From a bacterium (GTDB lineage: Bacteria > Patescibacteriota > Minisyncoccia > Phycocordibacterales > UBA2100), in the NCBI GenBank assembly GCA_030647655.1, contig JAUSJH010000009.1:18196-82195 (forward strand): a stretch of 64,000 nucleotides of DNA, written 5' to 3'. The translations under genes and the position numbers were made by a program. Below the pieces are notes generated by a model. That model saw nothing but the letters and a program-made list of their open reading frames with translations. It searched no databases and had not been told where the DNA came from. Below, in pieces: positions 1-17,410 of this stretch (within the stretch, counting starts at the first letter, position 1; every line of letters begins with the position of its first letter).

Positions 1-341
1 ATCGCCTTCTGCAGGGTTTTGTCGTCGGTGAACTTTTTGTGTTCCCGTATTTTCTTCAGCAATTCTATCTTCACGTTCCATCCGTACAAATCCTTGGAAA
101 AATCAAGTATGTGCGCTTCTAATACCTTTCTTTTCTGGTCGGCGTATGCGGCAGCTTCGTATTCCTCTTCCCTAAACCCTTCGGGTCGGGCGTCCGGCTC
201 CGCCGGATTAGCCCCCACTTTCACTTTCGCCGCATAAATCCCCGACACCGACGCATCGTCCAATGGAATATTAATCGTTGAAAATCCGAGCTCCGCCGCT
301 CGCTGTGTTCCTTTTCTAACAATGCCGGTGTAAGAGGTCAT
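1..341 (-). CDS. hypothetical protein, C-terminal part; ORF runs off window start, in-window start uncertain (ATG at 341, upstream GTG alternatives up to ~467)
   Basis: Manual reverse-strand translation gives an uninterrupted protein-like frame (…GFSTINIPLDDASVSGIYAAKVKVGANPAEPDARPEGFREEEYEAAAYADQKRKVLEAHILDFSKDLYGWNVKIELLKKIREHKKFTDDKTLQKA…) with no stop down to position 1. It is absent from the ORF track because no stop lies within the window. Confidence 0.4.
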   Translation of the reverse strand, partial: MTSYTGIVRKGTQRAAELGFSTINIPLDDASVSGIYAAKVKVGANPAEPDARPEGFREEEYEAAAYADQKRKVLEAHILDFSKDLYGWNVKIELLKKIREHKKFTDDKTLQKA

Positions 342-489
342 ATCGGAGGGGGTGAGATTCGAACTCACGACATCTTGCGATGTGACGGTTTTCAGGACCG
401 TTGCTTTAGACCGCTCAGCCACCCCTCCGGCATCGTTGTACCATGCTGAACGATTCCATGCATGCACAGAATGCTAGAATGGTTTTATC

Positions 490-960
490 ATGCCCCCACA
501 GAGGATCGTACTTCGCTGGAGCGCCTATGAACACGAGCACGTGCCGCGCGGAAGCGATTGGTTCTGGGCACTTGGTATCGTCGCGGTATCCGCGGCGCTT
601 ACGAGCATTCTTTTTCACGACGTTCTCTTTGCCATTCTCATACTCATTGCGGCTGGAATACTCGGGATGCTCGCCAACGTGCCGCCGGATTTGGTGCGGT
701 TCGAGGTTTCGGACCGCGGCATACGCACGGGCGACACCATGCACCGTTTTGAAGAGATAATCTCGTTCTGGGTGGAGGACGAGGATGGTGACCGGCCACT
801 GCTTCTCGTGGACACTACGAAATTCATGGCGCCGAATCTCATCATTCCTCTCGAGAACATAGATCCACACGTGGTACGCGTCTTCCTTCGAGAGCATGCG
901 GAAGAAATCCCGATGAAAGAACCGGTCGCTCACAAGATACTTGAATTTTTCGGACTCTAG
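490..960 (+). CDS. hypothetical membrane protein (2 predicted TM helices followed by a soluble domain)
   Basis: 156-aa ORF with hydrophobic stretches ALGIVAVSAALTSILF and AILILIAAGILGML. Preferred over the overlapping antisense ORF 415..933 because its composition is more protein-like. Confidence 0.45.
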   Translation: MPPQRIVLRWSAYEHEHVPRGSDWFWALGIVAVSAALTSILFHDVLFAILILIAAGILGMLANVPPDLVRFEVSDRGIRTGDTMHRFEEIISFWVEDEDGDRPLLLVDTTKFMAPNLIIPLENIDPHVVRVFLREHAEEIPMKEPVAHKILEFFGL

Positions 961-967
961 ACTCTAA

Positions 968-2959
968 CTACTGAGCGATACGCACAGTCGTCGTCGCGTC
1001 TTTTGTCCCGCCGGGGATTGTCTCGCAGTGGAGGAGGAACCGCGTGTCGGCTGTGATGGGAGAGGTCGTCGCCGTACCATTTACACTCGTGTTGGAAGAA
1101 TTACGCGCTGTGAAGTCAGGCTGGTCGGGGCTCGAGATGACGCAGGTTTGCATGCCGCTCGTAGTCCAGCCGATGAGTGATGTGCTGTTTTGCTGTACGC
1201 TACGCGGGTTTGCGACGAGGACAATACTCGGCCTGTTTACCTGCACGGAGCATTGCGCGCCGGCTGTGCGGTCTGGTCTACCTTGTCCTGGGGGAGCCTT
1301 TTCTGTGCACGTAAGCATGTAGGTCGCGGTGTTGGTGCCGGAAGGAGGATTTGCAACGGTCGTCGTTGCAGAGCCCGCGGGCTGGGTCGTCACCTTGAAA
1401 GACTTGCTGGAAGCGATGCCAGACGAACACGAGTAGGCAATGGCGATGGTCATGCCGACATCTGCGACCTTCGGCTGGCAGGATATCTCCGCTTTGAGCG
1501 TGGTGGAATTGTTCGGGACACATTGCCAGCCTACGATGCACGGACCGTTGTAGGTAGGTCGCCAAGAACCTACAGAACAATTCTCGGGATTTGGTGGTGG
1601 AGGTTGTGATTGGCACTGGCCTCCTGTAGAAGGCGTGCAGGGCACGGGCTGCGCGGGGGGCGGCATCATGGGGCTTTGCATACTATTGCCGCCCGTCTGC
1701 TGCATTTGCTGAACCTGTTGTTGGTACTGGTAGAGCTGGAGCTGGTAGTTATATTGCTGCATCTGCTGTTGGAATTGCTGTTGTTGTTGCTGATATTGAG
1801 CGGGGTCAGTAGGACAGGCTTGGGGAGGCATAGATGGCGGAGGAGGAGGGGTCGGGCGGAATGCATTCATAAGCCCGCTCAAGAAAGAAGCTAGTGGATT
1901 CGAACCGCCCGATTGAGAGCTCCGATTTCCGTCATTGAAGCCCGTGGTGTTACCGCCGCCGTACTTTGCATTATTTTCTGCCATCCGCCGCTGATATTCC
2001 GCATCAGCCCTCGCCTTAGCAGCAGCTTCAGCAGCCGCTTTTTTCGCCGCGTCGTCAGCTGACGGAGTAAGAGTCTTCCCATCTCCTAAGCCGGGATTAA
2101 GTTTGAGTGCGTCAGCCGTAACTTCTTTTGACGCCTTTGCGGCGTCTGAGTTAGGGTTCTCATCAGCGTATTTTCTTATTTGATCAATTGCCGGCTCTGG
2201 CAGACTGCCGTCAGGACTCAACTTAAAATCCGATGTGTCGGTTAGTTGTCTCCCTAACATGATGTTCAAATCAGATAGTGAAGTGCTGGGGATAGAACTT
2301 GATATCTTGGCCGTTCCTCCGCTACGCGCCAATAATTGGAAGTTCGAATTTTGATCTAATGAACTTTGCAAAGCTTTCGCTGCCAAATCATAATTTATGC
2401 CCTGCATTGTGGTAGCAGGAGCGCAGTCTACTGTGTCAGGGGCAATGCCTAATTTCTTGGACAGATTGCTACCTGGAGTGCTTTTGCAAACGATGGTCTT
2501 GCACAAGCCGGGTTTCATATTAGGGTCCGGTGCACCTTTAATGTTGATTGTGTTGTTGGTCAACAAACTCACGAAGACAGATTTTCCAACACATTTGAAT
2601 GGGGGGTTCTTCCCCGAATCCGGCGCTGCAGCAACGCAATCGTCCGTCGCTTTTTCTCCAGGCTTTGGGGGTGGTGTTTTTGTCTTTGCTTGCTTTATAG
2701 CAGCGTCACACTTTTGCGCAAGCGAATCGGCAGCTGCTTTCTGTGCTTTCTCCACATCAGTTAGCTGGGGAGCGGCGGCAGGTCGAGGCGGCGGAAGCGG
2801 GATTGCGGTAGCGGCAGGTGCCGCCAAAAGTGCTTGGTTATTCAATGCCACGTTCGCGGATTCAAATGCAATCGCGAATCCCCCGAGCACCACGGCGAGA
2901 ACGAATGCGGCAAGAATCGAAGCCCCGCGTGTGGAAATTCGCCGCTTGGGAGCTGTCAT
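968..2959 (-). CDS. large secreted/anchored protein, paralog A: N-terminal TM anchor, coiled-coil/Ala-Lys-rich region, poly-Pro, Gln-rich tract (QYQQQQQQFQQQMQQYNYQLQ) and a Cys-rich ~300-aa C-terminal domain
   Basis: 690-aa ORF (968..3040). The likely start is the internal Met of MTAPKRRISTRGASILAAFVLAVVLGG (2959). The C-terminal ~300 aa and the underlying DNA are highly similar to 3421..5664. Confidence 0.6.
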   Translation of the reverse strand: MTAPKRRISTRGASILAAFVLAVVLGGFAIAFESANVALNNQALLAAPAATAIPLPPPRPAAAPQLTDVEKAQKAAADSLAQKCDAAIKQAKTKTPPPKPGEKATDDCVAAAPDSGKNPPFKCVGKSVFVSLLTNNTINIKGAPDPNMKPGLCKTIVCKSTPGSNLSKKLGIAPDTVDCAPATTMQGINYDLAAKALQSSLDQNSNFQLLARSGGTAKISSSIPSTSLSDLNIMLGRQLTDTSDFKLSPDGSLPEPAIDQIRKYADENPNSDAAKASKEVTADALKLNPGLGDGKTLTPSADDAAKKAAAEAAAKARADAEYQRRMAENNAKYGGGNTTGFNDGNRSSQSGGSNPLASFLSGLMNAFRPTPPPPPSMPPQACPTDPAQYQQQQQQFQQQMQQYNYQLQLYQYQQQVQQMQQTGGNSMQSPMMPPPAQPVPCTPSTGGQCQSQPPPPNPENCSVGSWRPTYNGPCIVGWQCVPNNSTTLKAEISCQPKVADVGMTIAIAYSCSSGIASSKSFKVTTQPAGSATTTVANPPSGTNTATYMLTCTEKAPPGQGRPDRTAGAQCSVQVNRPSIVLVANPRSVQQNSTSLIGWTTSGMQTCVISSPDQPDFTARNSSNTSVNGTATTSPITADTRFLLHCETIPGGTKDATTTVRIAQ

Positions 2960-3050
2960 AGTGCAATCATGCGCCCCACATGCCCTGAACGCAATGCGCT
3001 TAGTCGAACAAATGTGGAAAAAAGCTAAAATATGATACATTTTCGGGAAC

Positions 3051-3122
3051 GCTCTCGTCGTTCAATGGATAGGATGCGACCTTGCGGAGGTTGTGATGTG
3101 GGTTCGATTCCCGCCGAGAGCA
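3051..3122 (+). tRNA. tRNA; my cloverleaf gives anticodon loop TTGCGGA, anticodon GCG (Arg), identity uncertain
   Basis: Acceptor stem GCTCTCG/CGAGAGC is perfectly complementary; the D-arm is GTTC..GGAT, using two G-U pairs. Anticodon stem CGACC/GGTTG. T-arm GTGGG-TTCGATT-CCCGC. Discriminator A; no CCA is encoded. Hand-folded only. Confidence 0.6.
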
Positions 3123-3299
3123 AAAAGAGTGAGACGATTTTGATCGAGAGTGTAGTGCCTGCGCACTGCGCGTGCGGGAATCGAACCGCAGGCTCCCGAT
3201 TTTCAGGCTGAGTATTCGAAGCTTAGAAAATCGCAGTCCTTTAGGGCCGCAGCTCCCGAAGAGGGAGCGAAGGTCTCGAGTTGTAGCAACAACGAGAGG

Positions 3300-3317
3300 C
3301 GATTCCCGCCGAGAGCA
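3300..3317 (+). repeat. 18-bp direct copy of the tRNA 3' end (CGATTCCCGCCGAGAGCA), att-like
   Basis: Identical 18-mer at 3105..3122 (tRNA 3' end) and 3300..3317. Between them on the opposite strand lies a degenerate tRNA-like T-arm (GGTTCGATTCCCGCA, 3163..3185). Confidence 0.5.
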
Positions 3318-3420
3318 TAGTGAATAATCTGCACGAGTGGCGCGACAGCGACGCGAGAGGTGAGGGAGATTCCTGCTTGCCCGTCCGTAGCTTTAGCGAA
3401 GGAGGGCCGAGAGCAAAGAA

Positions 3421-5664
3421 CTACGGCGCAATCAGCACCGTCGTCGTTGCGTCTTTCGTCACCCCTGCGAGAGTCTCACATCGCAGAAGGAATCGCGCGT
3501 CGGCCGTGATGGGGCTGGAGGTCGCGGCACCGTTCACGCTCGTGTTGGAAGAGTTGCGCGCGGTGAAGTCGGCCTGATCGGGGCTCGAGATGACGCAGGT
3601 TTGCATGCCGCTTGTCATCCAGCCGATGAGCGAGGTCTCGCCCGAGTGCGCAGTCTTCGGATTCGCGACGAGAATGATGCTCGGCTTGTTTACCTGCACG
3701 GAACACTGCGCGCCGGCGGTCTGGCCTTTGTCCTTGCACGTGAGCATGTAGGTCGCGGTGTTGGTGCCTGCGGGAGGCGAAGCTACCTTCAAGGTCGCAG
3801 AGCCGGCAGGCTGTTTCCCGACCTTGAATGAGTCGCTCGAGGCGGTGCCCGAGGAGCATGAGTAGGAAATAGCGAGCGTCATCCCGACGTCGGCGATCTT
3901 GGGCTCGCAGGATAGTTCGGCTGTGAGTGGGGTGGATGTCGCTTTAGGATTAGGGTTGGGTACACATCGCCAGCCGGTAATGCAGTTGCCGTTGTAGGTC
4001 GGACGCCATGATCCGGTGGAGCAACTTGCTGGATTCGGGAACGGAGGCTGGGATTGGCACTGGGTCTGGGTGGAAGGAGTGCATGGTGTGGGTTGGGCGG
4101 GAAGTGGTGCGGGGATGCTACTGCCACCCGTGAGCTGTCGTAACTGCTGTTGGTACTGGGACATTTGGAGCTGGTAGTTGTACTGCTGAAGCTGCTGCTG
4201 GTACTGCTGTTGCTGTTGGGCATATGCGTTCGGATCGGTCGAGCAAGCTTGCGCGGGCATGGGAGGTGGCGGCTGTGGAGCACCAAGCGCCTTCATAAGA
4301 CCTTCAAGCAATCCCGCAAGCGGATTTCCACCACCTCCTCCACCACCCGGCGGTGGGCTTCCTCCTGGCGGGCCGCCCGGTGGTCCGCCCGGTGGCGGAG
4401 TTGGAGGTTTTACCGGCGGCACAACCGGCGGTTTGGCATCCGGCGACGTCTCGGGCTTCGGTGGCGGACTAGCCGATTGACCGGGACTTGGGGCTTTGTA
4501 TTCGGCACCTGTCGGCCCAACTTCTTTATTGACCACGGTCGTCGTGTCTTTCAACTCGCCTCGAACGCACGCCTCGCTCGCACATCCTGTCTTCGTCCAC
4601 TCGGAATCCTTTGTCATCACAAAGCCCGTTTCATCTCCCGGAGAAGTTCCGGCCCAATGCGCTGCCGCTTCGTCAGGTCGCGGTACGTTTTGGGGTGACG
4701 GATCATTTACAACGGTACCGGGTGCCGAATTTCCGGGCTCAAAAGTGTTATTCCCAGTCGGATACTCATTAACTTTGGCATTTGGATTAAACTGGCTCAC
4801 ATAACCTGTGCTTGGGTTCGGGTTGAAACTTCCGGGGTCGAGCTTCACTGCGTTGGCACTAAGATCGTTTGAGGTTAAAAATGGATTGGGTTGCTGTGGC
4901 GGAGGTTGATTCATTGCCGTCACCCGTTCATCGAAAGCTTTTTGTGTGTCTGCATACTTTTGTATTTCCGCTTGCGTGTCTACCCTTTGTTGCTTGAGTT
5001 CATTCAGATAGGTCTCGTCTGGTGGTGTGACTCCGGCGCCGGCATTATATATTTTTTGCTCGTTTTCCAACCTGGTAGCCTCTCTATTAAACTCTGCATT
5101 TGTTCGTTCCAGAGATGCTTTCCAGTCCTCTTGGCTGGGCGGTGTTCCTCCTGTGTAGCTTCCCCCGCCAGATAGTTTTGTAAGATCCGCAGAACATTTT
5201 CCTTCGATTTCCTTCGGACACGAATTATTATGCTTCGGGCCACCCTTGCAACAACCGCCCGGCAAGAGCCCCGCAGCACCGGTTGCCGCTTCAGTACACG
5301 ACAACTCACAGTCGCGATCTTTCGGACACTGTTCGGGACCTACAGCCTTCTCTTTGTGAGTGCATTTATCTGTTACACATTTACGCCAGTTTGACTCACA
5401 CATCTCCCTAAGCACGTCCGATGCTGCGGTTTTCAAGCACGACTCGTATGCTGTCTGGCACTGGCCGTCTGATGTCGAAGTGGGAGCGGAGGGCGCGCCC
5501 GATTGCGCCAACATAGCTTGCGGATTCGCGGCATATGAAGGTTGTAAGAAAAAAGAATCGGCGAGGGAGACAACACCGGTCGTGCCGGCCAGGATGGCGA
5601 TAAATATGAGGGGGGTGGCAAACGAAAGTTGGCGCTCTTGATGGAGCGATTCGAAAAAGCCCAT
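3421..5664 (-). CDS. large secreted/anchored protein, paralog B: signal anchor, Cys-rich N-terminal region, G/P-rich linker (PPGGPPGGPPGG…GGGGGGG), Gln-rich tract, conserved Cys-rich C-terminal domain
   Basis: 747-aa ORF. The C-terminal region aligns nearly residue-for-residue with paralog A (CSTDP..YQQQQQ…SWRPTYNG.CI.GW.CVPN…TATYMLTC…AGAQCSVQVN.PSI.LVANP…LIGW.TSGMQTCVISSPDQ.DFTARNSSNTSVNG.AT.SPITAD.RFLL.CET). Confidence 0.65.
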   Translation of the reverse strand: MGFFESLHQERQLSFATPLIFIAILAGTTGVVSLADSFFLQPSYAANPQAMLAQSGAPSAPTSTSDGQCQTAYESCLKTAASDVLREMCESNWRKCVTDKCTHKEKAVGPEQCPKDRDCELSCTEAATGAAGLLPGGCCKGGPKHNNSCPKEIEGKCSADLTKLSGGGSYTGGTPPSQEDWKASLERTNAEFNREATRLENEQKIYNAGAGVTPPDETYLNELKQQRVDTQAEIQKYADTQKAFDERVTAMNQPPPQQPNPFLTSNDLSANAVKLDPGSFNPNPSTGYVSQFNPNAKVNEYPTGNNTFEPGNSAPGTVVNDPSPQNVPRPDEAAAHWAGTSPGDETGFVMTKDSEWTKTGCASEACVRGELKDTTTVVNKEVGPTGAEYKAPSPGQSASPPPKPETSPDAKPPVVPPVKPPTPPPGGPPGGPPGGSPPPGGGGGGGNPLAGLLEGLMKALGAPQPPPPMPAQACSTDPNAYAQQQQQYQQQLQQYNYQLQMSQYQQQLRQLTGGSSIPAPLPAQPTPCTPSTQTQCQSQPPFPNPASCSTGSWRPTYNGNCITGWRCVPNPNPKATSTPLTAELSCEPKIADVGMTLAISYSCSSGTASSDSFKVGKQPAGSATLKVASPPAGTNTATYMLTCKDKGQTAGAQCSVQVNKPSIILVANPKTAHSGETSLIGWMTSGMQTCVISSPDQADFTARNSSNTSVNGAATSSPITADARFLLRCETLAGVTKDATTTVLIAP

Positions 5665-5736
5665 GAGGGAATAATGGCGCGATTATGGTACATCTGCAAC
5701 AGTCGAAAGTGGAGAGGTTTATGCTATACTCGCGGC

Positions 5737-5952
5737 ATGGCAATCACGGTCTCAAAGGCGGAGGTGAAAAAAGGGGACGGTGTTGTTATTTTACCGCTCA
5801 AAGAATACCGGAGACTTTTGCAGCGCTCCGTGCCAGAATATTACCTTACCGGCAAAGCAGCCCGAGATTTGGACAAGCTCGTCGCACAGGGATTGCGCGA
5901 ACATCGAGAAGGAAAGACGCGCAAAATTCATTCGCTTGCAGACCTTGATTGA
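5737..5952 (+). CDS. putative type II antitoxin (partner of the downstream RelE/ParE toxin)
   Basis: 72-aa ORF MAITVSKAEVKKGDGVVILPLKEYRRLLQ… ending in an ATGA overlap with the toxin start. The longer 5629 ORF uses a TTG start and is less likely. Family not assigned. Confidence 0.5.
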   Translation: MAITVSKAEVKKGDGVVILPLKEYRRLLQRSVPEYYLTGKAARDLDKLVAQGLREHREGKTRKIHSLADLD

Positions 5953-6224
5953 CCGCTATGGCCATGGTTTCGATCGAAACGGGTCGCCAATTCGAGAAAC
6001 ATTATAGAAAATTGCCGAAGGCACTCAAAGAAGCGGCAAAACAAAAAGAAATTATTTTTCGCGAGAACCCGCTTCATCCGAGCCTCGGTACGCACAAACT
6101 CCACGGCAAAGATGCGGGCGCGTGGGCATTCTCGATTAATCGTAAGCTCCGAATTAAGTTTGTGTTTCTTACCAACGACAGCGTCCTGTTTTTAGACATC
6201 GGTACGCACGACATGTATTCGTAA
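5949..6224 (+). CDS. RelE/ParE-family type II toxin
   Basis: 91 aa. Motifs LHPSLGTHKLHGKDAGAWAFSI..R.KF…DIGTHD are typical of the RelE/ParE plasmid-stabilisation toxin fold. 4-nt overlap with the upstream antitoxin. Confidence 0.7.
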   Translation: MTAMAMVSIETGRQFEKHYRKLPKALKEAAKQKEIIFRENPLHPSLGTHKLHGKDAGAWAFSINRKLRIKFVFLTNDSVLFLDIGTHDMYS

Positions 6225-6236
6225 GCATTATTATGA

Positions 6237-6312
6237 AAGGGTACGGAGCGCTCGCGCCGCTTGAGATTTCATGCGCGCCGCTGTGTTCATTTTTATCGTG
6301 CCTTCGGCGCAA
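6237..6312 (-). pseudogene. duplicated 3' fragment of rpsT (S20 C-terminus EGTIK.NTAARMKSQAARALR.L) forming the left direct repeat of the hicBA cassette
   Basis: ~56-60 bp at 6249..6304 match 6869..6924 (~52/56 identical). The encoded peptide mirrors the S20 C-terminus. The surrounding ORF 6231..6566(-) is otherwise not protein-like. Confidence 0.5.
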
Positions 6313-6354
6313 CGCGTCATTGTGTACATAAAATGTTTCTGATACCATGAGGCT

Positions 6355-6600
6355 ATGTTGAGCGAATATCTTGATAAAAAACTACGGGCGGCTCGATACA
6401 AATTCCTAAAAGACGGAACGTATTTTGCGGAGATTCCCGGAGCTCGGGGGGTGTGGGCAAGTGCACGCAACCTAGAGGCATGCCGAAAGGAGCTACGCGA
6501 AGTCTTGGAAGATTGGCTGTTGATTAAAGTGCAGAGCAAAGAAAAAGTCCCGGGCCTTTCTATCAAAGTGGATCGCCGGTCGCTCGTGAGGCATGGCTAG
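6355..6600 (+). CDS. hicB: HicB-family antitoxin
   Basis: 81 aa; the YFAEIPGARGVWASARNLEACRKELREVLEDWL motif matches the HicB/UPF0150 antitoxin N-domain. It overlaps the downstream hicA. Confidence 0.65.
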   Translation: MLSEYLDKKLRAARYKFLKDGTYFAEIPGARGVWASARNLEACRKELREVLEDWLLIKVQSKEKVPGLSIKVDRRSLVRHG

Positions 6601-6805
6601 AAATATCTCCTGGCGGAAGCTTGTACAAAAATTTCGAAGACTCGGTTTTAATGGCCCCTATTCCGGAGGTCGCCATTTGTTCATGGTCCGTAGCACGCTC
6701 ACGGTTCGTATTCCAAACCCGCATCGCGGTGACATATCAGCTCATCTAGTCTCCGAGATATTGCGCCAAGCCGGAATCTCAAACGACGAGTGGAGCAACG
6801 CCTAG
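6593..6805 (+). CDS. hicA: HicA-family mRNA interferase toxin
   Basis: 70 aa; KLVQKFRRLGFNGPYSGGRHLFMV…VRIPNPHRGDISAHLVSEILRQAGIS is the canonical HicA (YcfA-like) signature. Confidence 0.7.
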   Translation: MARNISWRKLVQKFRRLGFNGPYSGGRHLFMVRSTLTVRIPNPHRGDISAHLVSEILRQAGISNDEWSNA

Positions 6806-6847
6806 AGTCGTCTGGGGCCGAAACACGCTGTCTCGTTTTGTAAACTC

Positions 6848-7114
6848 CTACGCGCCGAGAGCGCGAAGTGCTCGCGCCGCTTGCGATTTCATGCGCGCGG
6901 CGGTGTTCTTTTTTATCGTGCCTTCTTTGGCCGCTTTATCTATCGCTTTGTAGAGTTTCGGCAGCATCGCAGTCGCCTCTTTTGCATTCTTGCCCAAAAC
7001 TAGCTTGCCCATGTCTTTTACCGCGTCTTTCATGTTCTTCTTGCGACGCGAATTGATGACGCGACGGCGCTGTGCCGCGCGCTGTGCCTTCTTTGCCGAA
7101 CTTGTGTTTGCCAT
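6848..7114 (-). CDS. rpsT: 30S ribosomal protein S20
   Basis: 88 aa from the internal Met: MANTSSAKKAQRAAQRRRVINSRRKKNMKDAVK…KNTAARMKSQAARALRALGA. Confidence 0.8.
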   Translation of the reverse strand: MANTSSAKKAQRAAQRRRVINSRRKKNMKDAVKDMGKLVLGKNAKEATAMLPKLYKAIDKAAKEGTIKKNTAARMKSQAARALRALGA

Positions 7115-7169
7115 GTCGTGCGATGGTACACGAAGTGCTGTGGATATGCAATCGCGGTATGATACGGAG

Positions 7170-7742
7170 ATGATCGGTAACTTAAGCGGTACAGTCTTTG
7201 CGATAAGACCGGGCTTTGCAATAATCTCTGTGGGAGGTGTCGGGTACAAAGTGTTCGTCACACGCGAGATGCTTCTCACCCTGAAACCGAAAGAGGAGGC
7301 CGCGTTCTGGACACACCTTGCCGTACGAGAGAACGCGCTCGACCTCTACGGTTTTGGGGGCGAAGAAGAACTGCGACTTTTCGAGCTTCTCCTCACCGTT
7401 TCCGGCATCGGACCGAAATCCGCGCTCGCTATTCTGGATATCGCGTCCACCGAGACCCTGCGCAGTGCGATTTCGGGAGGGAATGCAACGTACCTCACCA
7501 AGGTCTCCGGCATCGGCAGGAAAACCGCCGAGAAAATCGTGCTTGAACTTAGAGACAAGGTAGGAGCATCGGCCGATGGAAGTGGCGCATCTCTCCACGG
7601 TGACGAAGAGGCGCTTGAGGCGCTCCGTTCGCTCGGATATTCGCAAGCGGAGGCGCGCGATGCCCTGCGCAAAGTGCCGCAAGAAATCGAAGGCGGAAGT
7701 GCGCGATTGCGCGAGGCCCTCAAAATAGTCGGGGGAAAGTAG
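7170..7742 (+). CDS. ruvA: Holliday junction DNA helicase RuvA
   Basis: 190 aa, MIGNLSGTV…GVGYKVFV…LLTVSGIGPKSALAIL…VSGIGRKTAEKIVLEL. It has the OB domain, two HhH motifs and the C-terminal domain. Confidence 0.85.
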   Translation: MIGNLSGTVFAIRPGFAIISVGGVGYKVFVTREMLLTLKPKEEAAFWTHLAVRENALDLYGFGGEEELRLFELLLTVSGIGPKSALAILDIASTETLRSAISGGNATYLTKVSGIGRKTAEKIVLELRDKVGASADGSGASLHGDEEALEALRSLGYSQAEARDALRKVPQEIEGGSARLREALKIVGGK

Positions 7743-7752
7743 CGGATACGTT

Positions 7753-9102
7753 ATGCGCATACGCTTAAAAGAGATAGTGCGGAAGATGCTGCCCTCGCCC
7801 CTGCTCTCGGTCTACCATCTCACGCTTGCGCATTTCGGAGCGATAGTTTCTGGTCATCCTTCGCGCAAGCTTCTCGTCATTGCGGTCACCGGCACAAAGG
7901 GGAAATCGTCGACTACCGAGATGTTGAACGCGATCTTCGAAGAAGCTGGTCACAAAACGGCACTCTTGAATTCTATCCGCATCAAAATAGCAGAGAGTAC
8001 AGATCCAAACATGATGCGCATGTCGATGCCGGGGAGATTCTTTATACAACGATTCCTGCGCGAGGCGGTGGGGAAAAAATGTTTCGTCGCAATCCTTGAA
8101 ATGACTTCCGAAGGGGCAGCACAACACCGCCATCGCGCGATTGAACTCGATGCGCTTGTGTTTACCAATCTGGCGCCCGAACACATCGAGTCGCACGGCT
8201 CATATAAAGCATACGCGGATGCGAAATTCGAGCTCGGGCGCCAGCTCGCGCGGTCGCGCAAGCGACCGCGCGTCGTGGTTGCCAACGCAGACGATCCGGA
8301 AAGCGCCCGCTATCTCGCGCTCAAGGTTGAGCGCGTACTTCCCTTCTCTCTTTCCGCACACGCACCGATGTATGCCGACGAGAAGGGCGGGTATTTCACG
8401 CTTGAGAACACAAAAATCCACGTGCGCCTTCCCGGTGAGTTCTCGCTCAAGAATGCGCTTGCGGCTGCGACACTCGCGCGCGCGCTTAATATTGCACCTG
8501 CTGTCATCGCGCACGCGCTCCAAAAACTAATGCACATTCCGGGACGCGCGGAGCGAATCGAAGAAGGCCAGAATTTCACGGTCGTTGTTGATTATGCACA
8601 CACGCCGGATTCACTCGAGGCGATATACAAAGCATACGGTGTCGCGCGAAAGATTTGCGTCCTCGGTTCGATGGGGGGAAGCCGTGACAGCTGGAACCGT
8701 CCGGTGAAAGGGCGTATTGCTAGCGAATATTGCGCGGAGGTGATACTCACGAATGAAGATCCGTGCGATGACGACCCCGCGGCGATTATCGAGCAAATGC
8801 GGAGCGGTGTCGTCGGTAAAGAGCCACTCATCTTCATTGACCGACGCGAGGCGATTTCGAAAGCTTTCGAAATCGCCCTGAGTTTGTCGAAAAGCATTCA
8901 TCAACCCCTCCAAAAAGCTCGGGGTAATCAAAACGACATAGTCGTTTTGATTACCGGCAAAGGAACCGACCCTTGGATCTACGGCGCCCGAGGCACAAAA
9001 ATTCAGTGGAGTGATGCCAGGGTTGCGCGTGAAGAACTCGCAAAACTAGCCGCCAGCAGAAAGGCCCGCCTCGGCGGCGAAACGGGTATAATGACCTCAT
9101 GA
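7753..9102 (+). CDS. Mur ligase family protein (MurE/MurF-like central and C-terminal domains, lacking the N-terminal UDP-binding domain)
   Basis: P-loop VTGTKGKSST, GEFSLKNALAAATLA, DYAHTPDSL, and a C-domain with GSMGGSRD…TNEDP. Confidence 0.7.
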   Translation: MRIRLKEIVRKMLPSPLLSVYHLTLAHFGAIVSGHPSRKLLVIAVTGTKGKSSTTEMLNAIFEEAGHKTALLNSIRIKIAESTDPNMMRMSMPGRFFIQRFLREAVGKKCFVAILEMTSEGAAQHRHRAIELDALVFTNLAPEHIESHGSYKAYADAKFELGRQLARSRKRPRVVVANADDPESARYLALKVERVLPFSLSAHAPMYADEKGGYFTLENTKIHVRLPGEFSLKNALAAATLARALNIAPAVIAHALQKLMHIPGRAERIEEGQNFTVVVDYAHTPDSLEAIYKAYGVARKICVLGSMGGSRDSWNRPVKGRIASEYCAEVILTNEDPCDDDPAAIIEQMRSGVVGKEPLIFIDRREAISKAFEIALSLSKSIHQPLQKARGNQNDIVVLITGKGTDPWIYGARGTKIQWSDARVAREELAKLAASRKARLGGETGIMTS

Positions 9103-10091
9103 TCAAACGCGTCCTCATCGTCTCCGTCATAATCTTTCTCATCGGGCTCATCGCTTTTTGGCTCATCAGCGGCGGGTGGGGCGCGGTTGGGCGGGTGGGA
9201 CAGACGCTCATGAACCCTTTTGATTTCTTTTTTGGGCAACGTCCTTCGGGAACATTTCTGCGCTTGCCGTGGCAGAAGGATTCTCCCGTACGCGGGCCCG
9301 ATATCTCCGATTATGCGACCGAGGCAAACCGACTCAATCAGAATGCGCAGGAAGAAGACCGTGCTGCGATAGAAGCGCAGTACGGACCGGATATAGCGCA
9401 AGTCCGTACATTAGGCAATCCTTCGCCATATGTGGGCAAAGCGAGAATCGTCGGGACAGCCCCGACCGAAAGCGATTCTGCCTATGAATACATCGAAATA
9501 GTCGCCGCCTCAAGCAATAGCGCGCCAATCTCTCTGACCAATTGGTCTCTGCAGAGTGCTGTATCTGGATTGCGCGCGCCCATCCCGCTCGGCGCACCGC
9601 TTTTTACCATAGGTGTCATCAACAGTGTGCAGGGGATATCTCTCGAGCCGGGGGCCTCCGCCGTTGTTACGACGAGCGCCTCCCCGGTCGGCACCTCATT
9701 TCGGGAAAATATCTGCAGTGGCTACCTTGGTGAACTCCAGACCTTTAGACCTGAAATGGGCAGTTCGTGCCCGCCCCCTTCAGAGGCCCTGCCAATGACC
9801 GCAGAGAATATACGCACCTATGGTGACGCGTGTTTTGATTACTTGAACGCGCTTCCCCAGTGCCACTTCCCGACCACTCTTCCATCGAACCTCTCGAGTA
9901 CGTGTCGCTCGTTTATAGCAAACACGATGTCATACAATGGCTGTGTAAATAGGTACCGCAACAGCGCGTCATTTGCACTTCCTTCGTGGCGCGTGTACCT
10001 CGCGCTACGCTCCGAAATTTGGCAAAACACTCACGACGTCATCCGCCTGCTCGACGGAGAAGGGCGGACAGTTGATGTACTAACGTACTGA
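9099..10091 (+). CDS. membrane-anchored lamin-tail-domain (LTD) protein
   Basis: N-terminal TM (VLIVSVIIFLIGLIAFWLI). The LTD-like segment is YEYIEIVAASSNSAPISLTNWSLQSAVSG…ISLEPGASAVVTT. The C-terminal part is Cys-rich. 4-nt overlap with the Mur-ligase gene. Confidence 0.6.
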   Translation: MIKRVLIVSVIIFLIGLIAFWLISGGWGAVGRVGQTLMNPFDFFFGQRPSGTFLRLPWQKDSPVRGPDISDYATEANRLNQNAQEEDRAAIEAQYGPDIAQVRTLGNPSPYVGKARIVGTAPTESDSAYEYIEIVAASSNSAPISLTNWSLQSAVSGLRAPIPLGAPLFTIGVINSVQGISLEPGASAVVTTSASPVGTSFRENICSGYLGELQTFRPEMGSSCPPPSEALPMTAENIRTYGDACFDYLNALPQCHFPTTLPSNLSSTCRSFIANTMSYNGCVNRYRNSASFALPSWRVYLALRSEIWQNTHDVIRLLDGEGRTVDVLTY

Positions 10092-10544
10092 AAACAAAAT
10101 AATCCCCGCCGCAACCGACACGTTGAGTGATTCTTTCCTGCCGTGCATCGGAATTTCGACGATTGAATCGCATGTTTTGAGAATGTTCTTTGGAACTCCT
10201 CGTACTTCATTGCCAAATACAAAGAGCGTCGGTTTTTTAATTTTTAACGAACGGTAGTCGCGCGCCCGCGCATCTTGCTCGACGCAAACTATTTTCCATC
10301 CATCTTTTTTTAGCTTTGAGAGCAGCCGCATCGGCGCCGTATGATGCTCCCACGGAACGTCTTTTTCCGCGCCGAGCGCGGTTTTTGCTATTTCTTTTTG
10401 AGAACGTCCGAATCTATCCCTCGGTGTCGGTGTATAACCCGAAAGATATATATGCGAAATCCCAGCCGCGTCCGCCGTGCGGAATATAGAGCCCACGTTG
10501 TGCGCACTACGAATATTGTGCAGTAATACCGTCACTTCTTTCAT
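10080..10544 (-). CDS. SpoU-class RNA 2'-O-methyltransferase (TrmH/TrmL-like)
   Basis: 154 aa; motifs NIRSAHNVGSIFRTADAAG, VFGNEVRGV, IPMHGRKESLNVSVAAGIIL. Confidence 0.75.
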   Translation of the reverse strand: MKEVTVLLHNIRSAHNVGSIFRTADAAGISHIYLSGYTPTPRDRFGRSQKEIAKTALGAEKDVPWEHHTAPMRLLSKLKKDGWKIVCVEQDARARDYRSLKIKKPTLFVFGNEVRGVPKNILKTCDSIVEIPMHGRKESLNVSVAAGIILFSVR

Positions 10545-10580
10545 GTCGGCACCATACCATGCAGATGTTATAATTGCGCC

Positions 10581-10979
10581 ATGCTTTCCCTCTTCCCCGA
10601 TATTCTTTTCCTAGCCCCAGTCTCGGCCACCATCCTGCGCATCGTGGCTGGCGTGGCTTTTCTATCTCTTGCATGGATACACTGGCAGAAGCGTGATGAA
10701 ATGAGCCAGATAGATTTTATAGTCGTCGGAAGAGGAATGTGGATTCCAATATTCGCGTCTGTGTTTGAGCTCATCATCGGGGTCGGTCTTATTATCGGAA
10801 TCTATGCGCAAGCGATGGCCCTCCTCGGCGCACTCGCAGCACTAAAATCTTTTATATGGAAACGCCGTTACAGCGGGCTGTTTCCACTATCCCGCACCGA
10901 AAGTGTACTTCTCTTTGTTATCTGTATCTCCGTTGTCCTCACCGGCGCTGGCGCCTTCGCATTCGACCTCCCACTTTAA
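10581..10979 (+). CDS. DoxX-family membrane protein
   Basis: 132 aa with 4 predicted TM helices and a typical DoxX layout (LRIVAGVAFLS…). Confidence 0.6.
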   Translation: MLSLFPDILFLAPVSATILRIVAGVAFLSLAWIHWQKRDEMSQIDFIVVGRGMWIPIFASVFELIIGVGLIIGIYAQAMALLGALAALKSFIWKRRYSGLFPLSRTESVLLFVICISVVLTGAGAFAFDLPL

Positions 10980-11029
10980 ATAATCTTTAGCTTTGAGCTT
11001 CTCGCCTCTAGGGGTTATAGTTTTGCATA

Positions 11030-11103
11030 CCCCTCGTAGCTCAGTGGCAGAGCAGCTCCCTTTTAAGGAGTTGATGTTGGTTCGATTCCAACCGGGGGGA
11101 CCA
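11030..11103 (+). tRNA. tRNA-Lys (anticodon TTT)
   Basis: CCCCTCG TA GCTC AGTGGCA GAGC A GCTCC CTTTTAA GGAGT TGAT GTTGG TTCGATT CCAAC CGGGGGG A CCA. Acceptor and T stems pair; anticodon loop is CT-TTT-AA. Hand-folded. Confidence 0.7.
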
Positions 11104-11186
11104 AACAGGAAATTGCAAGCCGGAGCCCGCCGCCTCGCTTCGCTCGGCGGTCAAAATGGACACGCTCAACAAAAGTCCCAAATGTT

Positions 11187-12854
11187 TTAGTACAGTTGTC
11201 TAAGCCGCTTTTGAAGTGCGGAATACGCAGGCTTGGCTTTTAGATTGGTGTCGAATAGCAAACTTGTGCCATAGACAGTTGGGTATCTGTCGGATCTCGT
11301 CGTAGAACCGTAGAGATCAGTAACACCCCAAGTGGAATACCCAGTACAATTCAAGGCTCGTAGACACACATCTAAGCCGACTACGTACTGATTAATCTGC
11401 GCTTCCGGATCATCTCCGGTGACATCTATTTCTGATATGCGGACCTTAAGCCCGAGTGTCGCGAGTGTTTGCATGTGCGCTCGAAGCGTAGACGCTTCAT
11501 TATAGTCACCATCCCCGTATACATGTGACTCAAACCCGATTCCATCGACGGGCACCCCGCGATTTTTGAGCCGCTTGACTAAACCAAGAAGAGCGTCCCA
11601 TCGTTCACCATCACGTTCCAATCCATAGTCGTTGAGGTACAGTTCTGCAGATGGATCGGCTTTGTGAGCAGTGCGAAATGCCAGATCTATATATTGTTCA
11701 CCCATCGCCTCGTACCATGTATTTCGGTCAAGACCGTGCCGCTCATCACGATACGGAGCTTTTTTGTTTGATAAAGGCTCGTTGACAACATCCCACTCGG
11801 CAACCCTCCCCTTGAAATGACCCACGACAGTCGCTACGTGATTGACCATAATTTCCTGGAGCTCTTCTTTTGGGGAATCTGTCATCCACTCAGGGCTGCT
11901 TTTTGCGTATACCAACGCATGTCCGTGTACGAGCATGTCATTCTGCAGTGCGATATTGACGAGCGTGTCCATTTCGATAAATGAATAGACGTCTTGTTGC
12001 GGATGTATGAATTGCGGCTTCATGCCATTTTCGGGCGTAATCATACTGAACTCACCGAGAGCAAGCTTCCGATACTCTGGATCGGTAACGAGGGCGCTGT
12101 ATACGACAGCGGCTCCCATCCGGAGTTTTCGTGGGTGTGCTGCTGCTAAATTACGCAGGGCATCCGGGTCGTCGTGCGCGACATCATATGAGGAGGGAGG
12201 AACGATTTCTATATGTCCGCTTGAGAGCGGCTCTACTTTTAACGCACCCAGTATCCAATCATCACCCTGTGCAGCGTCAGCTCCGAACCACACCTCTTTG
12301 CTATCAAAAATATGATGGTCGGGAATAGTTCCAAGCTCCTGCCCGTCCGCGCTCGCTATAAGAGTACCGGCCAGATGTTCGATAGAAATACTCACAGAGT
12401 TTTTTAATGCGAACGGATAGATTCTTTCATCGTTAGAATTTGAAGAACTGCCATCCCATATACGCATCGTAACGGTGCCCGTCGCTACATCAATTGCCAC
12501 ACTGCCGGTCTCAAACCGCCACTGGTCGTACACGACCGGAGGCTTTCCGTATAGCCTGAGTGTTCCTCTGGCGTCGATGTTTTCCATGCGCGCAGTTATT
12601 CTAAAATCACCAGATACCGCAAGGTGGACGCCCGCAAGATTCACCGGTGGACTTGGCTGCCCGAGAGATCCGTCCTGATGGATGATGACACGATCAAGCG
12701 ATTGTATGCGAAGGCCTTCCCTTGTAGTTGTTGCACCGGCAAATTGTTGCCAATTTTGATTGGTAACAAGATCCGCACTTTTATCACTGCCGTACGCGAC
12801 GAGGACGATGACTGCGGCAACGAGTACCACGACCCAAAACTTACTCACGAACAT
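11187..12854 (-). CDS. glycoside hydrolase family 10 endo-1,4-beta-xylanase with N-terminal TM anchor and a ~250-aa putative carbohydrate-binding domain
   Basis: GH10 motifs MITPENGMKP, GHALVYAKSSPEWM, WDVVNEPL (acid/base Glu) and ISEIDV (nucleophile Glu). Start taken at the internal Met MFVSKFWVVVLV (12854) to avoid an 80-nt overlap. Confidence 0.8.
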   Translation of the reverse strand: MFVSKFWVVVLVAAVIVLVAYGSDKSADLVTNQNWQQFAGATTTREGLRIQSLDRVIIHQDGSLGQPSPPVNLAGVHLAVSGDFRITARMENIDARGTLRLYGKPPVVYDQWRFETGSVAIDVATGTVTMRIWDGSSSNSNDERIYPFALKNSVSISIEHLAGTLIASADGQELGTIPDHHIFDSKEVWFGADAAQGDDWILGALKVEPLSSGHIEIVPPSSYDVAHDDPDALRNLAAAHPRKLRMGAAVVYSALVTDPEYRKLALGEFSMITPENGMKPQFIHPQQDVYSFIEMDTLVNIALQNDMLVHGHALVYAKSSPEWMTDSPKEELQEIMVNHVATVVGHFKGRVAEWDVVNEPLSNKKAPYRDERHGLDRNTWYEAMGEQYIDLAFRTAHKADPSAELYLNDYGLERDGERWDALLGLVKRLKNRGVPVDGIGFESHVYGDGDYNEASTLRAHMQTLATLGLKVRISEIDVTGDDPEAQINQYVVGLDVCLRALNCTGYSTWGVTDLYGSTTRSDRYPTVYGTSLLFDTNLKAKPAYSALQKRLRQLY

Positions 12855-13389
12855 AATCTGCCGCGACAACAGATTCTGGACCACTGCTCTTGAGCATTCC
12901 GGTGACCGTGACGGTATCACCTACCGCTATGTCTCCTATAGCTTGTCCCACGCCCTTTGAGGTCAAGAATTTCGTGCCGGAGTCTGTTGTTATAGTCCAT
13001 ATGAAATCCGCTGAACCCCACGTCATCCCCACACGGAGAGTGCCGCGAGCGTTTGAAATGACCGTGGCGCCCCGTAGAAGCATCAATCCGTTGTTCGCGA
13101 TATGCATCTCAAGCATCTGTGGTTTTAAGGTGGCGGCGTTCGCCACAGCCGGAGTGCCCAGGTAGACCTTGCCCGCAGTAAATTGTGGAGCTGCGGCGGC
13201 GACGCGTACCGAGAAGACTTCGGATACATACAAGAAAGCTATGAATACGGTGGCGATCGCAATGAGGGCTCCTATGAATACCCTGCGAGTGATTTTGGAG
13301 ATGAACGTGAACGCGGCGGTATTGAGGGCTCGCGCCATGCCGAGCACCACCGTAGTGCGAGCAGGAGTCTGGAGGAGGATGCGCATCAT
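12841..13389 (-). CDS. hypothetical membrane-anchored protein
   Basis: ORF 12841..13434. Start placed at MMRILLQ (13389), just downstream of the GlsB stop. Single TM FIGALIAIATVFIAFLYV. Confidence 0.45.
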   Translation of the reverse strand: MMRILLQTPARTTVVLGMARALNTAAFTFISKITRRVFIGALIAIATVFIAFLYVSEVFSVRVAAAAPQFTAGKVYLGTPAVANAATLKPQMLEMHIANNGLMLLRGATVISNARGTLRVGMTWGSADFIWTITTDSGTKFLTSKGVGQAIGDIAVGDTVTVTGMLKSSGPESVVAADYVRE

Positions 13390-13394
13390 AGGTC

Positions 13395-13643: not shown

Positions 13644-13660
13644 ATAATTGTTATATTTGT

Positions 13661-14020: not shown

Positions 14021-14027
14021 ATGATCT

Positions 14028-17213: not shown

Positions 17214-17410
17214 ACTAAGGTTTCGGTGTTTAGGCTCGTAATGAGTGACAAACTGCTCCTAGAGTACCACTGTAAAACAGGACGGATGAACATTTCATGA
17301 AGCCATTAGTCCCTTGATAGCGCGGCCCTAACAATAGCTACGCAATCCCCAGGACCACTGGAAACAGACGCGGAGGGATGCGCTGGCTTACTGCTCCCGC
17401 AGGTATTTTC

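What the first reader, a model, noticed from the sequence alone, without database searches (positions are those of the whole stretch)
5737..7114. Toxin-antitoxin islet downstream of rpsT: RelE/ParE pair plus a hicBA cassette bracketed by ~60-bp direct repeats from the rpsT 3' end
Two type II TA modules sit back to back. The hicB-hicA cassette (about 6305..6868) is flanked by two copies of the last ~60 bp of rpsT: 6249..6304 versus 6869..6924, ~93% identical. The right copy is the true rpsT C-terminal coding end. The left copy is a decayed pseudo-fragment. A duplication of this length at the exact end of a conserved gene suggests site-specific insertion of a mobile TA cassette that uses the rpsT 3' end as its attachment site, by analogy to tRNA/tmRNA att sites. 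This would be an unusual integration target. The adjacent RelE/ParE pair may have arrived the same way.
Basis: seen in the sequence. Interest (0 to 1): 0.6.

Follow-up and report, generated by a model that had tools for sequence, protein, structure and literature searches.

The report
Stacked toxin-antitoxin cassettes behind rpsT
In this groundwater Kaiserbacteria genome, a hicBA toxin-antitoxin cassette arrived with a fresh copy of the end of the ribosomal gene rpsT and pushed the old 75-bp end and an older RelE-type module downstream, most likely by ordinary rather than site-specific recombination.

Summary
The repeat is real: window 6244-6305 and 6864-6925 match at 90% over 62 nt (93% over a 56-nt core), with none expected by chance. 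The right copy is the 3' end of an intact rpsT (6848-7114, minus strand). The left copy (6231-6305) is an in-frame fragment covering codons 64-86 plus a stop codon.

Close relatives show every intermediate state of this gap:
- Empty: rpsT, 54-55 nt, then a large secreted-protein gene.
- RelE pair only, abutting rpsT. This arrangement is collinear with the window's left copy.
- RelE pair plus a ParE pair.
- Another ParE-like toxin.

So the gap is a strain-variable toxin-antitoxin slot. HicBA is the newcomer and the left copy is the displaced ancestral rpsT end. Eight of the ten differences between the copies fall at third codon positions, and the copies are about as far apart as orthologues. 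That points to two alleles rather than decay in place.

A fixed att site is not supported:
- No recombinase lies within window 1-19,400.
- The ParE stacking event broke rpsT at codon 77, not 64, and also duplicated the intergenic region.
- HicBA relatives elsewhere have no flanking repeats.

The best reading is recombination between diverged alleles with one illegitimate junction. This is a known kind of process seen in a new setting. Interest is moderate.

The parts
3421..5664 (-). Large secreted low-complexity protein gene ('big'). It is the conserved neighbour that bounds the slot on the far side.
   Evidence: Homologues follow rpsT within 29-70 nt in close relatives L002, L003, L004, L009, L082-L085 and L187-L193 (phmmer E 1e-111 to 1e-154). 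It has no Pfam family.
5665..5721 (.). Native rpsT-big intergenic region, retained whole. It now also lies upstream of the RelE-pair antitoxin.
   Evidence: It aligns by eye with the 54-55-nt intergenic region of empty-site relatives (..GTTGCAG..GCGCCATTATT..ATG). A promoter-like site lies at 5703-5730 on the + strand: TCGAAA-16-TATACT with an upstream TG. The outer coordinate is approximate.
5737..5952 (+). Putative antitoxin (71 aa) of the RelE-type module; family unknown.
   Evidence: It lies immediately upstream of the toxin. It is conserved together with the toxin in L182-L185 and L196. No Pfam, NCBIfam or PDB match was found.
5958..6224 (+). RelE/YafQ-like toxin (88 aa). This is the older, resident module.
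   Evidence: YafQ_toxin 1e-4, TIGR02385 5e-4 and phrog_1213 1e-4, all full length but below the curated cut-offs. 13 of 34 homologues match YafQ_toxin. Orthologues at 90-94% identity sit next to rpsT in L182-L185.
6231..6305 (-). Displaced ancestral rpsT 3' end (codons 64-86 plus stop). This is the left repeat copy.
   Evidence: It reads in frame as EGTIKMNTAARMKSQAARALRTLS*. Window 5931-6305 is collinear with L184 3-377 (84%), where this stretch is the end of an intact rpsT. Its tail RTLS* matches the L184 tail RTLSA* with only synonymous differences.
6306..6354 (.). Junction and hicB upstream region. The first 11 nt (GGCGCAACGCG) resemble the central motif of the native intergenic region.
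   Evidence: Homology between the two repeat copies stops at 6305|6306. The motif matches the L187 and L083 intergenic regions in 8-16 of 1000 shuffles, uncorrected, so the signal is weak.
6355..6600 (+). hicB antitoxin (81 aa); part of the newcomer module.
   Evidence: PF21748 UPF0150 1.6e-24, 86 bits against a cut-off of 27.3. 226 homologues at 63-77% identity occur across Patescibacteria.
6593..6805 (+). hicA toxin (70 aa), overlapping hicB by 8 nt.
   Evidence: PF07927 HicA_toxin 2.4e-9, 37.6 bits against a cut-off of 27. The same 81-aa plus 70-aa overlapping pair occurs in L171-L181 and L200.
6806..6847 (.). Spacer between the convergent hicA and rpsT stop codons.
   Evidence: It has no similarity to the sequence after the left copy. 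No terminator-like site was scored here.
6848..7114 (-). Functional rpsT (S20, 88 aa). Its 3' end, 6864-6925, is the right repeat copy.
   Evidence: Ribosomal_S20p 1.1e-17; TIGR00029 7.4e-19. Its tail ALRALGA matches the closest orthologue, L186 (ALRALGV; 97% amino-acid and 88% nucleotide identity).

Best explanation
**What it is.** In this clade of Candidatus Kaiserbacteria, the short gap between rpsT and the next gene ('big') is a strain-variable slot for small type II toxin-antitoxin (TA) cassettes.

**Starting state (shown).** The window's lineage first carried only the RelE-type pair, placed exactly between the rpsT stop codon and the native intergenic region.

**The event (inferred).** DNA from a related strain then recombined with the chromosome. 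That strain's allele of the same locus carried hicBA behind its own rpsT.
- One crossover was homologous, on the rpsT/ruvA side.
- The other was illegitimate. It joined the sequence upstream of hicB to the resident rpsT at codon 64.
- This is homology-facilitated illegitimate recombination or unequal crossover. A RecA-mediated single crossover of a circularised fragment would give the same product.

**Result (shown).** The order is now:
- rpsT, intact, with an incoming 3' end
- hicA-hicB
- the displaced resident rpsT 3' end (75 nt)
- the RelE pair
- the intergenic region
- 'big'

The 'direct repeats' are therefore two orthologous rpsT ends, not an att core.

**Why stacking rather than replacement (inferred).** A clean allelic replacement would delete the resident antitoxin gene while its toxin persists. 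Only recombinants that keep the old module survive. Only junctions that leave the essential rpsT whole are viable.
For: **1. States of the slot**
- Empty site: rpsT stop, 54-55 nt, then the 'big' ATG, in L003, L082-L084 and L187-L193, against 1,183 nt in the window.
- RelE pair only: L184 and L185 have the RelE toxin stop 3-4 nt from the stop of a complete rpsT.
- L184 3-377 aligns without a break to window 5931-6305 and stops there.
- Stacked with different cargo: L182, L183, L196 and L197 carry a ParE pair instead of hicBA.

**2. The two copies look like orthologues**
- They differ at 10 sites in 69 nt, 8 of them third-codon positions.
- That excess has P=0.003 against uniform decay. It has P=0.037 against a model in which one copy stays constrained while the other decays.
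- Left-right distance is 10/69. Right-L186 is 7/69 and left-L186 is 8/69. The copies are thus as far apart as orthologues from different organisms.
- The left tail RTLS* differs from the L184 tail RTLSA* only synonymously.

**3. An independent parallel event has different breakpoints**
- In L182, L183, L196 and L197 a ParE pair sits between the RelE pair and rpsT.
- It comes with a 38-nt rpsT remnant, RVTKALHAISA*, broken at codon 77.
- Next to that lies a 56-nt, 93% copy of the native intergenic region.
- The two are joined at a 4-nt CGCG microhomology.

**4. No site-specific machinery or conserved cassette ends**
- No recombinase lies in window 1-19,400.
- HicBA relatives in 12 other contexts lack flanking repeats.
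- DNA homology to the nearest relative is confined to the coding region, 6355-6784.

**5. Opportunity**
- Different alleles co-occur in one sample: L184 and L197 in ERZ27254845, and L186 and L190 in ERZ27254767.
- ruvA is adjacent to the locus. Pfam matches to RuvB_N, RuvC and T2SSE (type II/IV secretion ATPase) occur elsewhere in the window.
- Competence and pilus genes are reported as common in Patescibacteria (PMC12455944).

**6. Precedent**
- The same logic was proposed for orphan arrays at T6SS effector-immunity and Rhs loci (PMC5361080).
Against: - The predicted donor allele (rpsT-hicAB-intergenic-big without the RelE pair) was not found. The closest HicB relatives are only 75-77% identical and sit in unrelated contexts.
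- Microhomology at the window's own junction cannot be assessed without the donor sequence.
- The intergenic-like motif at 6306-6316 is only weakly significant.
- The window's rpsT shows no mosaic signal against L186: about 10% divergence in the 3' part and about 13% in the 5' part.
- Homology-facilitated illegitimate recombination is rare where it has been measured (PMC5361080).
- Transformation has not been shown for Kaiserbacteria.
- The final topology is identical to that left by an integrase, so the anatomy alone cannot exclude a trans-acting recombinase.
Confidence: 0.55

Rival explanations
1. Site-specific integration. HicBA is a small mobilisable cassette whose attP mimics the last ~75 nt of rpsT. 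A recombinase encoded elsewhere inserts it into the rpsT 3' end, as tRNA- and tmRNA-targeting islands do.
For: - A direct repeat flanks the cargo, with a sharp inner boundary and a restored essential gene.
- An empty site exists and cargo varies in relatives.
- An rpsT tail remnant recurs in a second lineage.
Against: - No recombinase lies in the cassette or within window 1-19,400.
- Breakpoints differ between events, codon 64 versus codon 77, and the L183-type insert also carries a copy of the locus's own intergenic region.
- The longest identical run between the copies is 16 nt, and mismatches are spread along the whole repeat.
- None of about 66 Patescibacteria rpsT loci has a second rpsT fragment.
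- HicBA homologues elsewhere have no repeats.
- No rpsT-end mimic was found on viral contigs.
- No paper in the searched library links rpsT to an integration site.
Confidence: 0.12
2. In-place duplication. A tandem duplication of the segment from rpsT codon 64 to the intergenic region arose within one genome, and one TA copy was later swapped for hicBA. The left copy has since decayed.
For: - Both copies share the derived AARAL motif. They are closer to each other (10/69) than to L184 or L185 (14-19/69).
- The L183-type structure looks like two tandem units, each of rpsT end, TA pair and intergenic region.
Against: - The differences are mostly synonymous, and there are no indels or frame breaks in the copy that should be unconstrained.
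- The copies are as divergent as window versus L186 orthologues.
- The tails differ in the way orthologues differ, and the left tail matches L184.
- This route needs an extra cassette-replacement step.
Confidence: 0.15
3. Assembly chimera of two co-occurring strains, one with hicBA and one with the RelE pair behind rpsT, joined through the shared rpsT end.
For: Related strains with different alleles do co-occur in single samples. The repeat is long enough to confuse a short-k-mer graph.
Against: - A chimera through the repeat would swap flanks. It would not create a tandem order with a novel junction at 6305|6306.
- A Logan contig from SRR13727527 is 100% identical to window 3583-11078, and proteins identical to the window's are on record on a 155,854-nt NCBI contig.
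- The analogous stacked structure occurs in four independent samples.
Confidence: 0.03

Closest known systems
Orphan or displacement arrays at Rhs, CDI and T6SS effector-immunity loci, proposed to arise by homology-facilitated illegitimate recombination (PMC5361080 and references there)
   Same: - A conserved anchor gene stays intact by taking the incoming 3' part.
- The resident 3' fragment and its protective partner gene are pushed downstream and kept.
- Relatives show simpler intermediate forms.
- No integrase is involved.
- Keeping the old module has a selective reason: immunity there, antitoxin here.
   Different: - The anchor here is an essential ribosomal protein gene that is not part of the toxin system.
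- The modules are convergent type II TA operons, not toxin C-termini fused to the anchor.
- Only one displacement step is seen per genome.
- The mechanism is inferred, not shown, in either system.
Integrative islands that target the 3' end of a gene and carry a replacement end (tRNA and tmRNA att sites; from my own knowledge, also protein genes such as rplL, rpsI, rpmG and guaA in streptococcal ICEs and IMEs)
   Same: - The insertion falls inside the 3' end of a conserved gene.
- The gene is restored by incoming sequence.
- The displaced end is left as a direct repeat at the far side.
- Related strains have empty and occupied sites.
   Different: - There is no integrase.
- The cargo is 0.5 kb.
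- Breakpoints vary between events.
- The other flank of the locus is co-duplicated in the parallel event.
- The repeats differ mainly at synonymous sites, as orthologues do, and share no long identical core.
HicAB and RelE/YafQ type II toxin-antitoxin modules
   Same: - HicA and HicB (UPF0150) domains score above Pfam cut-offs, and the two genes overlap in one operon.
- The RelE-like toxin has a small upstream partner gene.
- Both families are widespread in Patescibacteria.
   Different: - The gene order is hicB then hicA.
- The RelE-like toxin is below curated thresholds.
- Its 71-aa partner has no recognised family.
- Activity is untested.

Membership tests
Integrase-mediated gene-3'-end (tRNA-type) integrative element | A tyrosine or serine recombinase encoded in or next to the element | tested here: not met
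   The cassette holds only hicB and hicA. The ORFs of 100 aa or more scanned across window 1-19,400 (plus one of 91 aa) give no recombinase or transposase family. The whole-window summary lists none among its top 25 of 67 families, but that list is truncated.
Integrase-mediated gene-3'-end (tRNA-type) integrative element | attL and attR direct repeats with an identical core at the crossover | tested here: inconclusive
   The repeat is 62 nt at 90%. The longest identical run is 16 nt, and mismatches are spread along the repeat.
Integrase-mediated gene-3'-end (tRNA-type) integrative element | The same target position reused by independent insertions | tested here: not met
   The window breakpoint is at rpsT codon 64. 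The L182/L183/L196/L197 breakpoint is at codon 77.
Integrase-mediated gene-3'-end (tRNA-type) integrative element | An empty site in related genomes | tested here: met
   L184 and L185 have RelE|rpsT without hicBA. L187-L193, L003 and L082-L084 have no TA genes at all.
Displacement array by homologous plus illegitimate recombination | The anchor gene is intact, and a displaced 3' fragment plus the older module lie downstream of the newcomer | tested here: met
   The order is rpsT, hicAB, rpsT codons 64-86, RelE pair. The left copy is collinear with the L184 rpsT end plus RelE toxin gene.
Displacement array by homologous plus illegitimate recombination | The displaced and functional ends derive from different alleles | tested here: met
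   8 of 10 differences fall at third codon positions. The left-right distance equals the distance to the L186 orthologue.
Displacement array by homologous plus illegitimate recombination | An illegitimate junction at no homology or microhomology, variable between events | tested here: inconclusive
   The L183 junction shows a 4-nt CGCG microhomology between rpsT and the intergenic region. The window junction cannot be judged because the donor allele is unknown.
Displacement array by homologous plus illegitimate recombination | DNA uptake and recombination capacity in the organism | not testable with these tools
   Only indirect evidence exists: ruvA at the locus, Pfam RuvB_N, RuvC and T2SSE matches elsewhere in the window, and a literature statement that competence and pilus genes are common in Patescibacteria (PMC12455944).
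HicAB type II TA | A HicA toxin domain and a HicB (UPF0150/RNase H-like) antitoxin domain in one operon | tested here: met
   PF07927 scores 37.6 bits against a cut-off of 27. PF21748 scores 86 bits against 27.3. The genes overlap by 8 nt.
RelE/ParE-superfamily type II TA | The toxin matches a RelE-superfamily model above its curated threshold | tested here: inconclusive
   YafQ_toxin scores 22.8 bits against 30. TIGR02385 scores 20.4 against 27.9. 13 of 34 homologues match YafQ_toxin and 6 of 34 match HigB-like. A profile search found no PDB relative.
RelE/ParE-superfamily type II TA | A recognisable cognate antitoxin | tested here: inconclusive
   A 71-aa gene lies directly upstream and is co-conserved in relatives. 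It has no family or structure match.
Integron gene cassette | An IntI integrase and an attC site at the cassette end | tested here: not met
   No integrase was found. No inverted repeat was reported in 6806-6847 or 6306-6354. A formal attC model was not run.

The most novel reading that the evidence does not exclude
These are integrase-less mini-cassettes specialised for the rpsT 3' end. Each small TA operon would travel with a copy of the end of an essential ribosomal gene. A host or trans-acting recombinase would insert it there, making rpsT a dedicated landing pad for addiction modules in ultra-small CPR (Candidate Phyla Radiation) genomes. Alternatively, and more modestly, TA addiction itself forces allelic exchange to be additive. 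That would be a general rule for how TA arrays grow next to essential genes.
Probability: 0.12. Interest if true: 0.6.

Novelty: new variant of a known kind. Interest (0 to 1): 0.35.

Why it matters
- It is a compact natural record of how a streamlined, uncultured bacterium gains TA modules. The empty, single and stacked states of one locus are all recoverable from related aquifer populations.
- The case suggests a testable rule. Next to an essential gene, and with an addictive resident module, only additive recombinants survive. Those recombinants rebuild the essential gene and keep the old antitoxin. That would explain TA arrays and short pseudo-fragments of housekeeping genes without any dedicated mobility enzyme.
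- It is also a caution for island-finding methods. A direct repeat at a gene's 3' end is not by itself an att site.

Tried and rejected
- **Second rpsT fragments in other loci.** I searched 24 genome-derived and 42 metagenome-derived Patescibacteria rpsT loci with tblastn, using N- and C-terminal pieces. Only the window has one. The informative relatives came from RelE-toxin homologues instead.
- **TA homologues in those loci.** phmmer of the four TA proteins against every ORF of those loci found none.
- **Flanking repeats around other hicBA cassettes.** None in 12 contexts. The nearest HicB relative, L200, sits in an unrelated context.
- **A suspected 'empty' allele.** L198 and L199 carry the L183-type S20 and looked empty, but they have the same ParE arrangement with a spurious gene call.
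- **hicB upstream versus the window's own intergenic region.** The similarity is not significant (1617 of 5000 shuffles). Only an 11-nt motif matches the intergenic regions of relatives, and weakly.
- **Viral contigs.** No rpsT-end mimic and no close HicB relative.
- **PDB searches.** Sequence and profile searches for the RelE-like toxin and its partner found nothing.
- **Whole-window Pfam survey through a dummy alignment.** It shows only 25 of 67 families, so it cannot exclude a distant recombinase.
- **Literature.** No paper in the library links rpsT to an integration site.
- **Integron idea.** Rejected for lack of an integrase and of attC-like palindromes.
Full report
**Observation**

The repeat finder gives one family, 6244-6305 versus 6864-6925: 62 nt, 90% identical, 620 nt apart. 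The 56-nt core has four mismatches. A degenerate pattern for it matches twice in the window and never in 100 shuffles.

rpsT is 6848-7114 on the minus strand (Ribosomal_S20p 1e-17; TIGR00029 7e-19), so the right copy is its real 3' end. The region between the copies holds two genes, both above Pfam's cut-offs and overlapping by 8 nt:
- hicB, 6355-6600, UPF0150, 86 bits
- hicA, 6593-6805, 37.6 bits

To the left lie an 88-aa toxin (5958-6224) and a 71-aa upstream partner (5737-5952).
- The toxin gives three full-length but sub-threshold RelE-superfamily matches.
- Of 34 homologues, 13 hit YafQ_toxin.
- The partner has no family match.

**Anatomy of the copies**

Read on the minus strand, the left copy is still in frame. 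It reads EGTIKMNTAARMKSQAARALRTLS* with its stop at 6231-6233, only 6 nt from the RelE toxin's stop. The functional end reads EGTIKKNTAARMKSQAARALRALGA*. Similarity starts abruptly at codon 64 (6305|6306 equals 6925|6926). It fades in the variable C-terminal tail and disappears after the stop codons.

Over 23 codons the copies differ at 10 sites, 8 of them third positions. That excess has P=0.003 if differences fell at random. It has P=0.037 if one copy were constrained while the other decayed.

The left-right distance (10/69) is about the same as each copy's distance to the rpsT of another organism, L186 (7/69 and 8/69). These look like two orthologous gene ends, not a duplication decaying in place.

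**Organism and the empty site**

S20 relatives place the window in Candidatus Kaiserbacteria, in the Patescibacteria/CPR.

In species-level relatives (L002, L003, L004, L009, L082-L085) rpsT is followed after 28-69 nt by the homologue of the large secreted protein at window 3421-5664. In the seven contigs L187-L193, whose S20 is 90% identical to the window's, the gap is 54 nt. In the window that gap is 1,183 nt. The whole TA islet is therefore an insertion.

The native intergenic sequence is still recognisable at about 5665-5721. The RelE pair sits exactly between the old rpsT stop codon and that intergenic region, with no duplication.

**Intermediates**

Close homologues of the RelE-like toxin (94% and 90%) led to short groundwater contigs that show other states of the locus.
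- L184 and L185 have the RelE toxin gene directly against a complete rpsT (3-4 nt between the stops) and no hicBA.
- L184 3-377 aligns without interruption to window 5931-6305 at 84% and stops at 6305. From there L184 continues into the rest of rpsT, which aligns to window 6857-7132.
- The left copy is therefore the ancestral rpsT end of a RelE|rpsT arrangement. Its tail RTLS* matches the L184 tail RTLSA* apart from synonymous changes and one missing codon.
- HicBA, together with the rpsT end now in use, is the newcomer.

**A parallel event with different breakpoints**

In L182, L183, L196 and L197, from four samples, the slot between the RelE pair and rpsT holds a different module: a 72-aa gene plus a 98-aa ParE toxin (PF05016 4e-8). 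Three features mark the junction there.
- Right after the RelE toxin's stop lies a 38-nt remnant encoding RVTKALHAISA*. This is an rpsT tail broken at codon 77.
- The remnant is fused to a 56-57-nt, 91-93% copy of the native intergenic region (L183 1355-1410 versus 1936-1991).
- The junction falls at a 4-nt CGCG shared by rpsT and the intergenic region.

The second unit therefore carries a piece of the same locus, so it came from another allele of this locus rather than from a foreign element with its own ends.

L186 has the S20 closest to the window (97% amino-acid, 88% nucleotide identity, tail ALRALGV). It has yet another ParE-like toxin converging on rpsT.

Different alleles co-occur in single samples: L184 and L197 in ERZ27254845, and L186 and L190 in ERZ27254767.

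**Tests of the att-site reading**

- The cassette has no recombinase, and none was found among the ORFs scanned in window 1-19,400.
- About 66 other Patescibacteria rpsT loci have no second rpsT fragment.
- The 81-aa/70-aa hicBA pair is common across Patescibacteria, behind genes for RNase Y, adenylosuccinate synthase, a redoxin and others. None of 12 contexts has flanking repeats.
- DNA similarity to the nearest relative is confined to the coding region.
- No rpsT-end mimic occurs on viral contigs.
- Breakpoints differ on both sides between the two stacking events.

**Mechanism**

The most economical account is recombination between diverged alleles of one locus. One crossover is homologous, on the rpsT side. 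The other is illegitimate and falls inside the resident rpsT.

This is the logic proposed for orphan arrays at T6SS effector-immunity and Rhs loci (PMC5361080). It fits a phylum in which DNA-uptake genes are reported to be common (PMC12455944).

Shown here:
- the order of events
- the allelic origin of the two copies
- variation in both cargo and breakpoints

Inferred:
- the recombination pathway
- the donor allele, which was not found
- the idea that TA addiction and the essentiality of rpsT filter recombinants towards stacking

A trans-acting recombinase cannot be excluded from anatomy alone. I give it about 0.12.

An in-place tandem duplication followed by a cassette swap is less parsimonious. 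It also fits the synonymous pattern poorly. I give it about 0.15.

An assembly chimera is unlikely, at about 0.03. A Logan contig from SRR13727527 is 100% identical to window 3583-11078, and proteins identical to the window's are on record on a 155,854-nt NCBI contig. The analogous structure also recurs in four samples.

**Verdict**

It is wrong on mechanism, because there is no evidence for a dedicated att site.

The TA modules are ordinary members of known families. The stacking behind an essential ribosomal gene is a new variant of a known displacement process. Interest is moderate.

Noticed in passing
L183 1355-1410 vs 1936-1991, and 1905-1942; the same structure in L182, L196 and L197: A second, independent TA-stacking event (ParE pair). 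It has a 56-nt duplicate of the native rpsT-big intergenic region fused to a 38-nt rpsT tail remnant (RVTKALHAISA*) at a CGCG microhomology.
   Followed up: yes
L002 6268-6336; L194 6268-6411; L183 2511-2537: Directly after the rpsT stop lies a 31-nt unit, CGyCTGwGTTAGGCACCTGTAGACGGCCTAA, that ends with a copy of the last 7-9 nt of rpsT. L194 has two units and L002 has a 26-nt insert in one. The hairpin GCCTAAC..GTTAGGC includes the stop codon. It may be a terminator or a scar of earlier insertions.
   Followed up: partly
L006 2023-2718, L097 705-1601, L100 1065-1775, L015 5359-6108, L108 6297-7019: In more distant Paceibacteria the same rpsT-big gap holds a 231-298-aa gene on the opposite strand. 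It has an N-terminal HTH (weak HTH_SB match, 3e-4) and a conserved YWAEG[ST]K motif. Some of these stretches translate to the peptide PAGIEPT. The gap therefore seems to be a general insertion hot spot.
   Followed up: partly
L094 6443-7054 (similar genes in L007 and L012): Another occupant of the rpsT-big gap: a ~200-aa protein with a PaaX central Cas2-like domain (PF20803, 2e-18).
   Followed up: partly
window 968-3037 and 3421-5664 (minus strand); tRNA-Arg 3051-3122: Two tandem paralogues of a large secreted, proline/glutamine-rich protein with no Pfam family. They share 72-81% nucleotide identity in blocks and are separated by tRNA-Arg(gcg). The same pair is conserved after rpsT across Paceibacteria.
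   Followed up: partly
L186 47-514 and 638-904: In the closest S20 relative, a SpoU methylase gene lies upstream of rpsT instead of ruvA. This is either a local rearrangement relative to the window or a chimeric short contig.
   Followed up: no
window 19826-20014: Three in-frame tandem copies of a 63-nt unit (73-79% identity) lie inside the ORF 19675-21060.
   Followed up: no
window 6231-6566 (minus strand): A 111-aa ORF antisense to hicB ends in the displaced S20 C-terminus. It is probably spurious, but it keeps the fragment inside an open frame.
   Followed up: no
L183 1041-1354 versus L182 2060-2100: L182 has the 'big' start codon directly after the intergenic region. L183 has about 310 nt of unrelated sequence there. 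The far side of the slot therefore also varies between near-identical strains.
   Followed up: no
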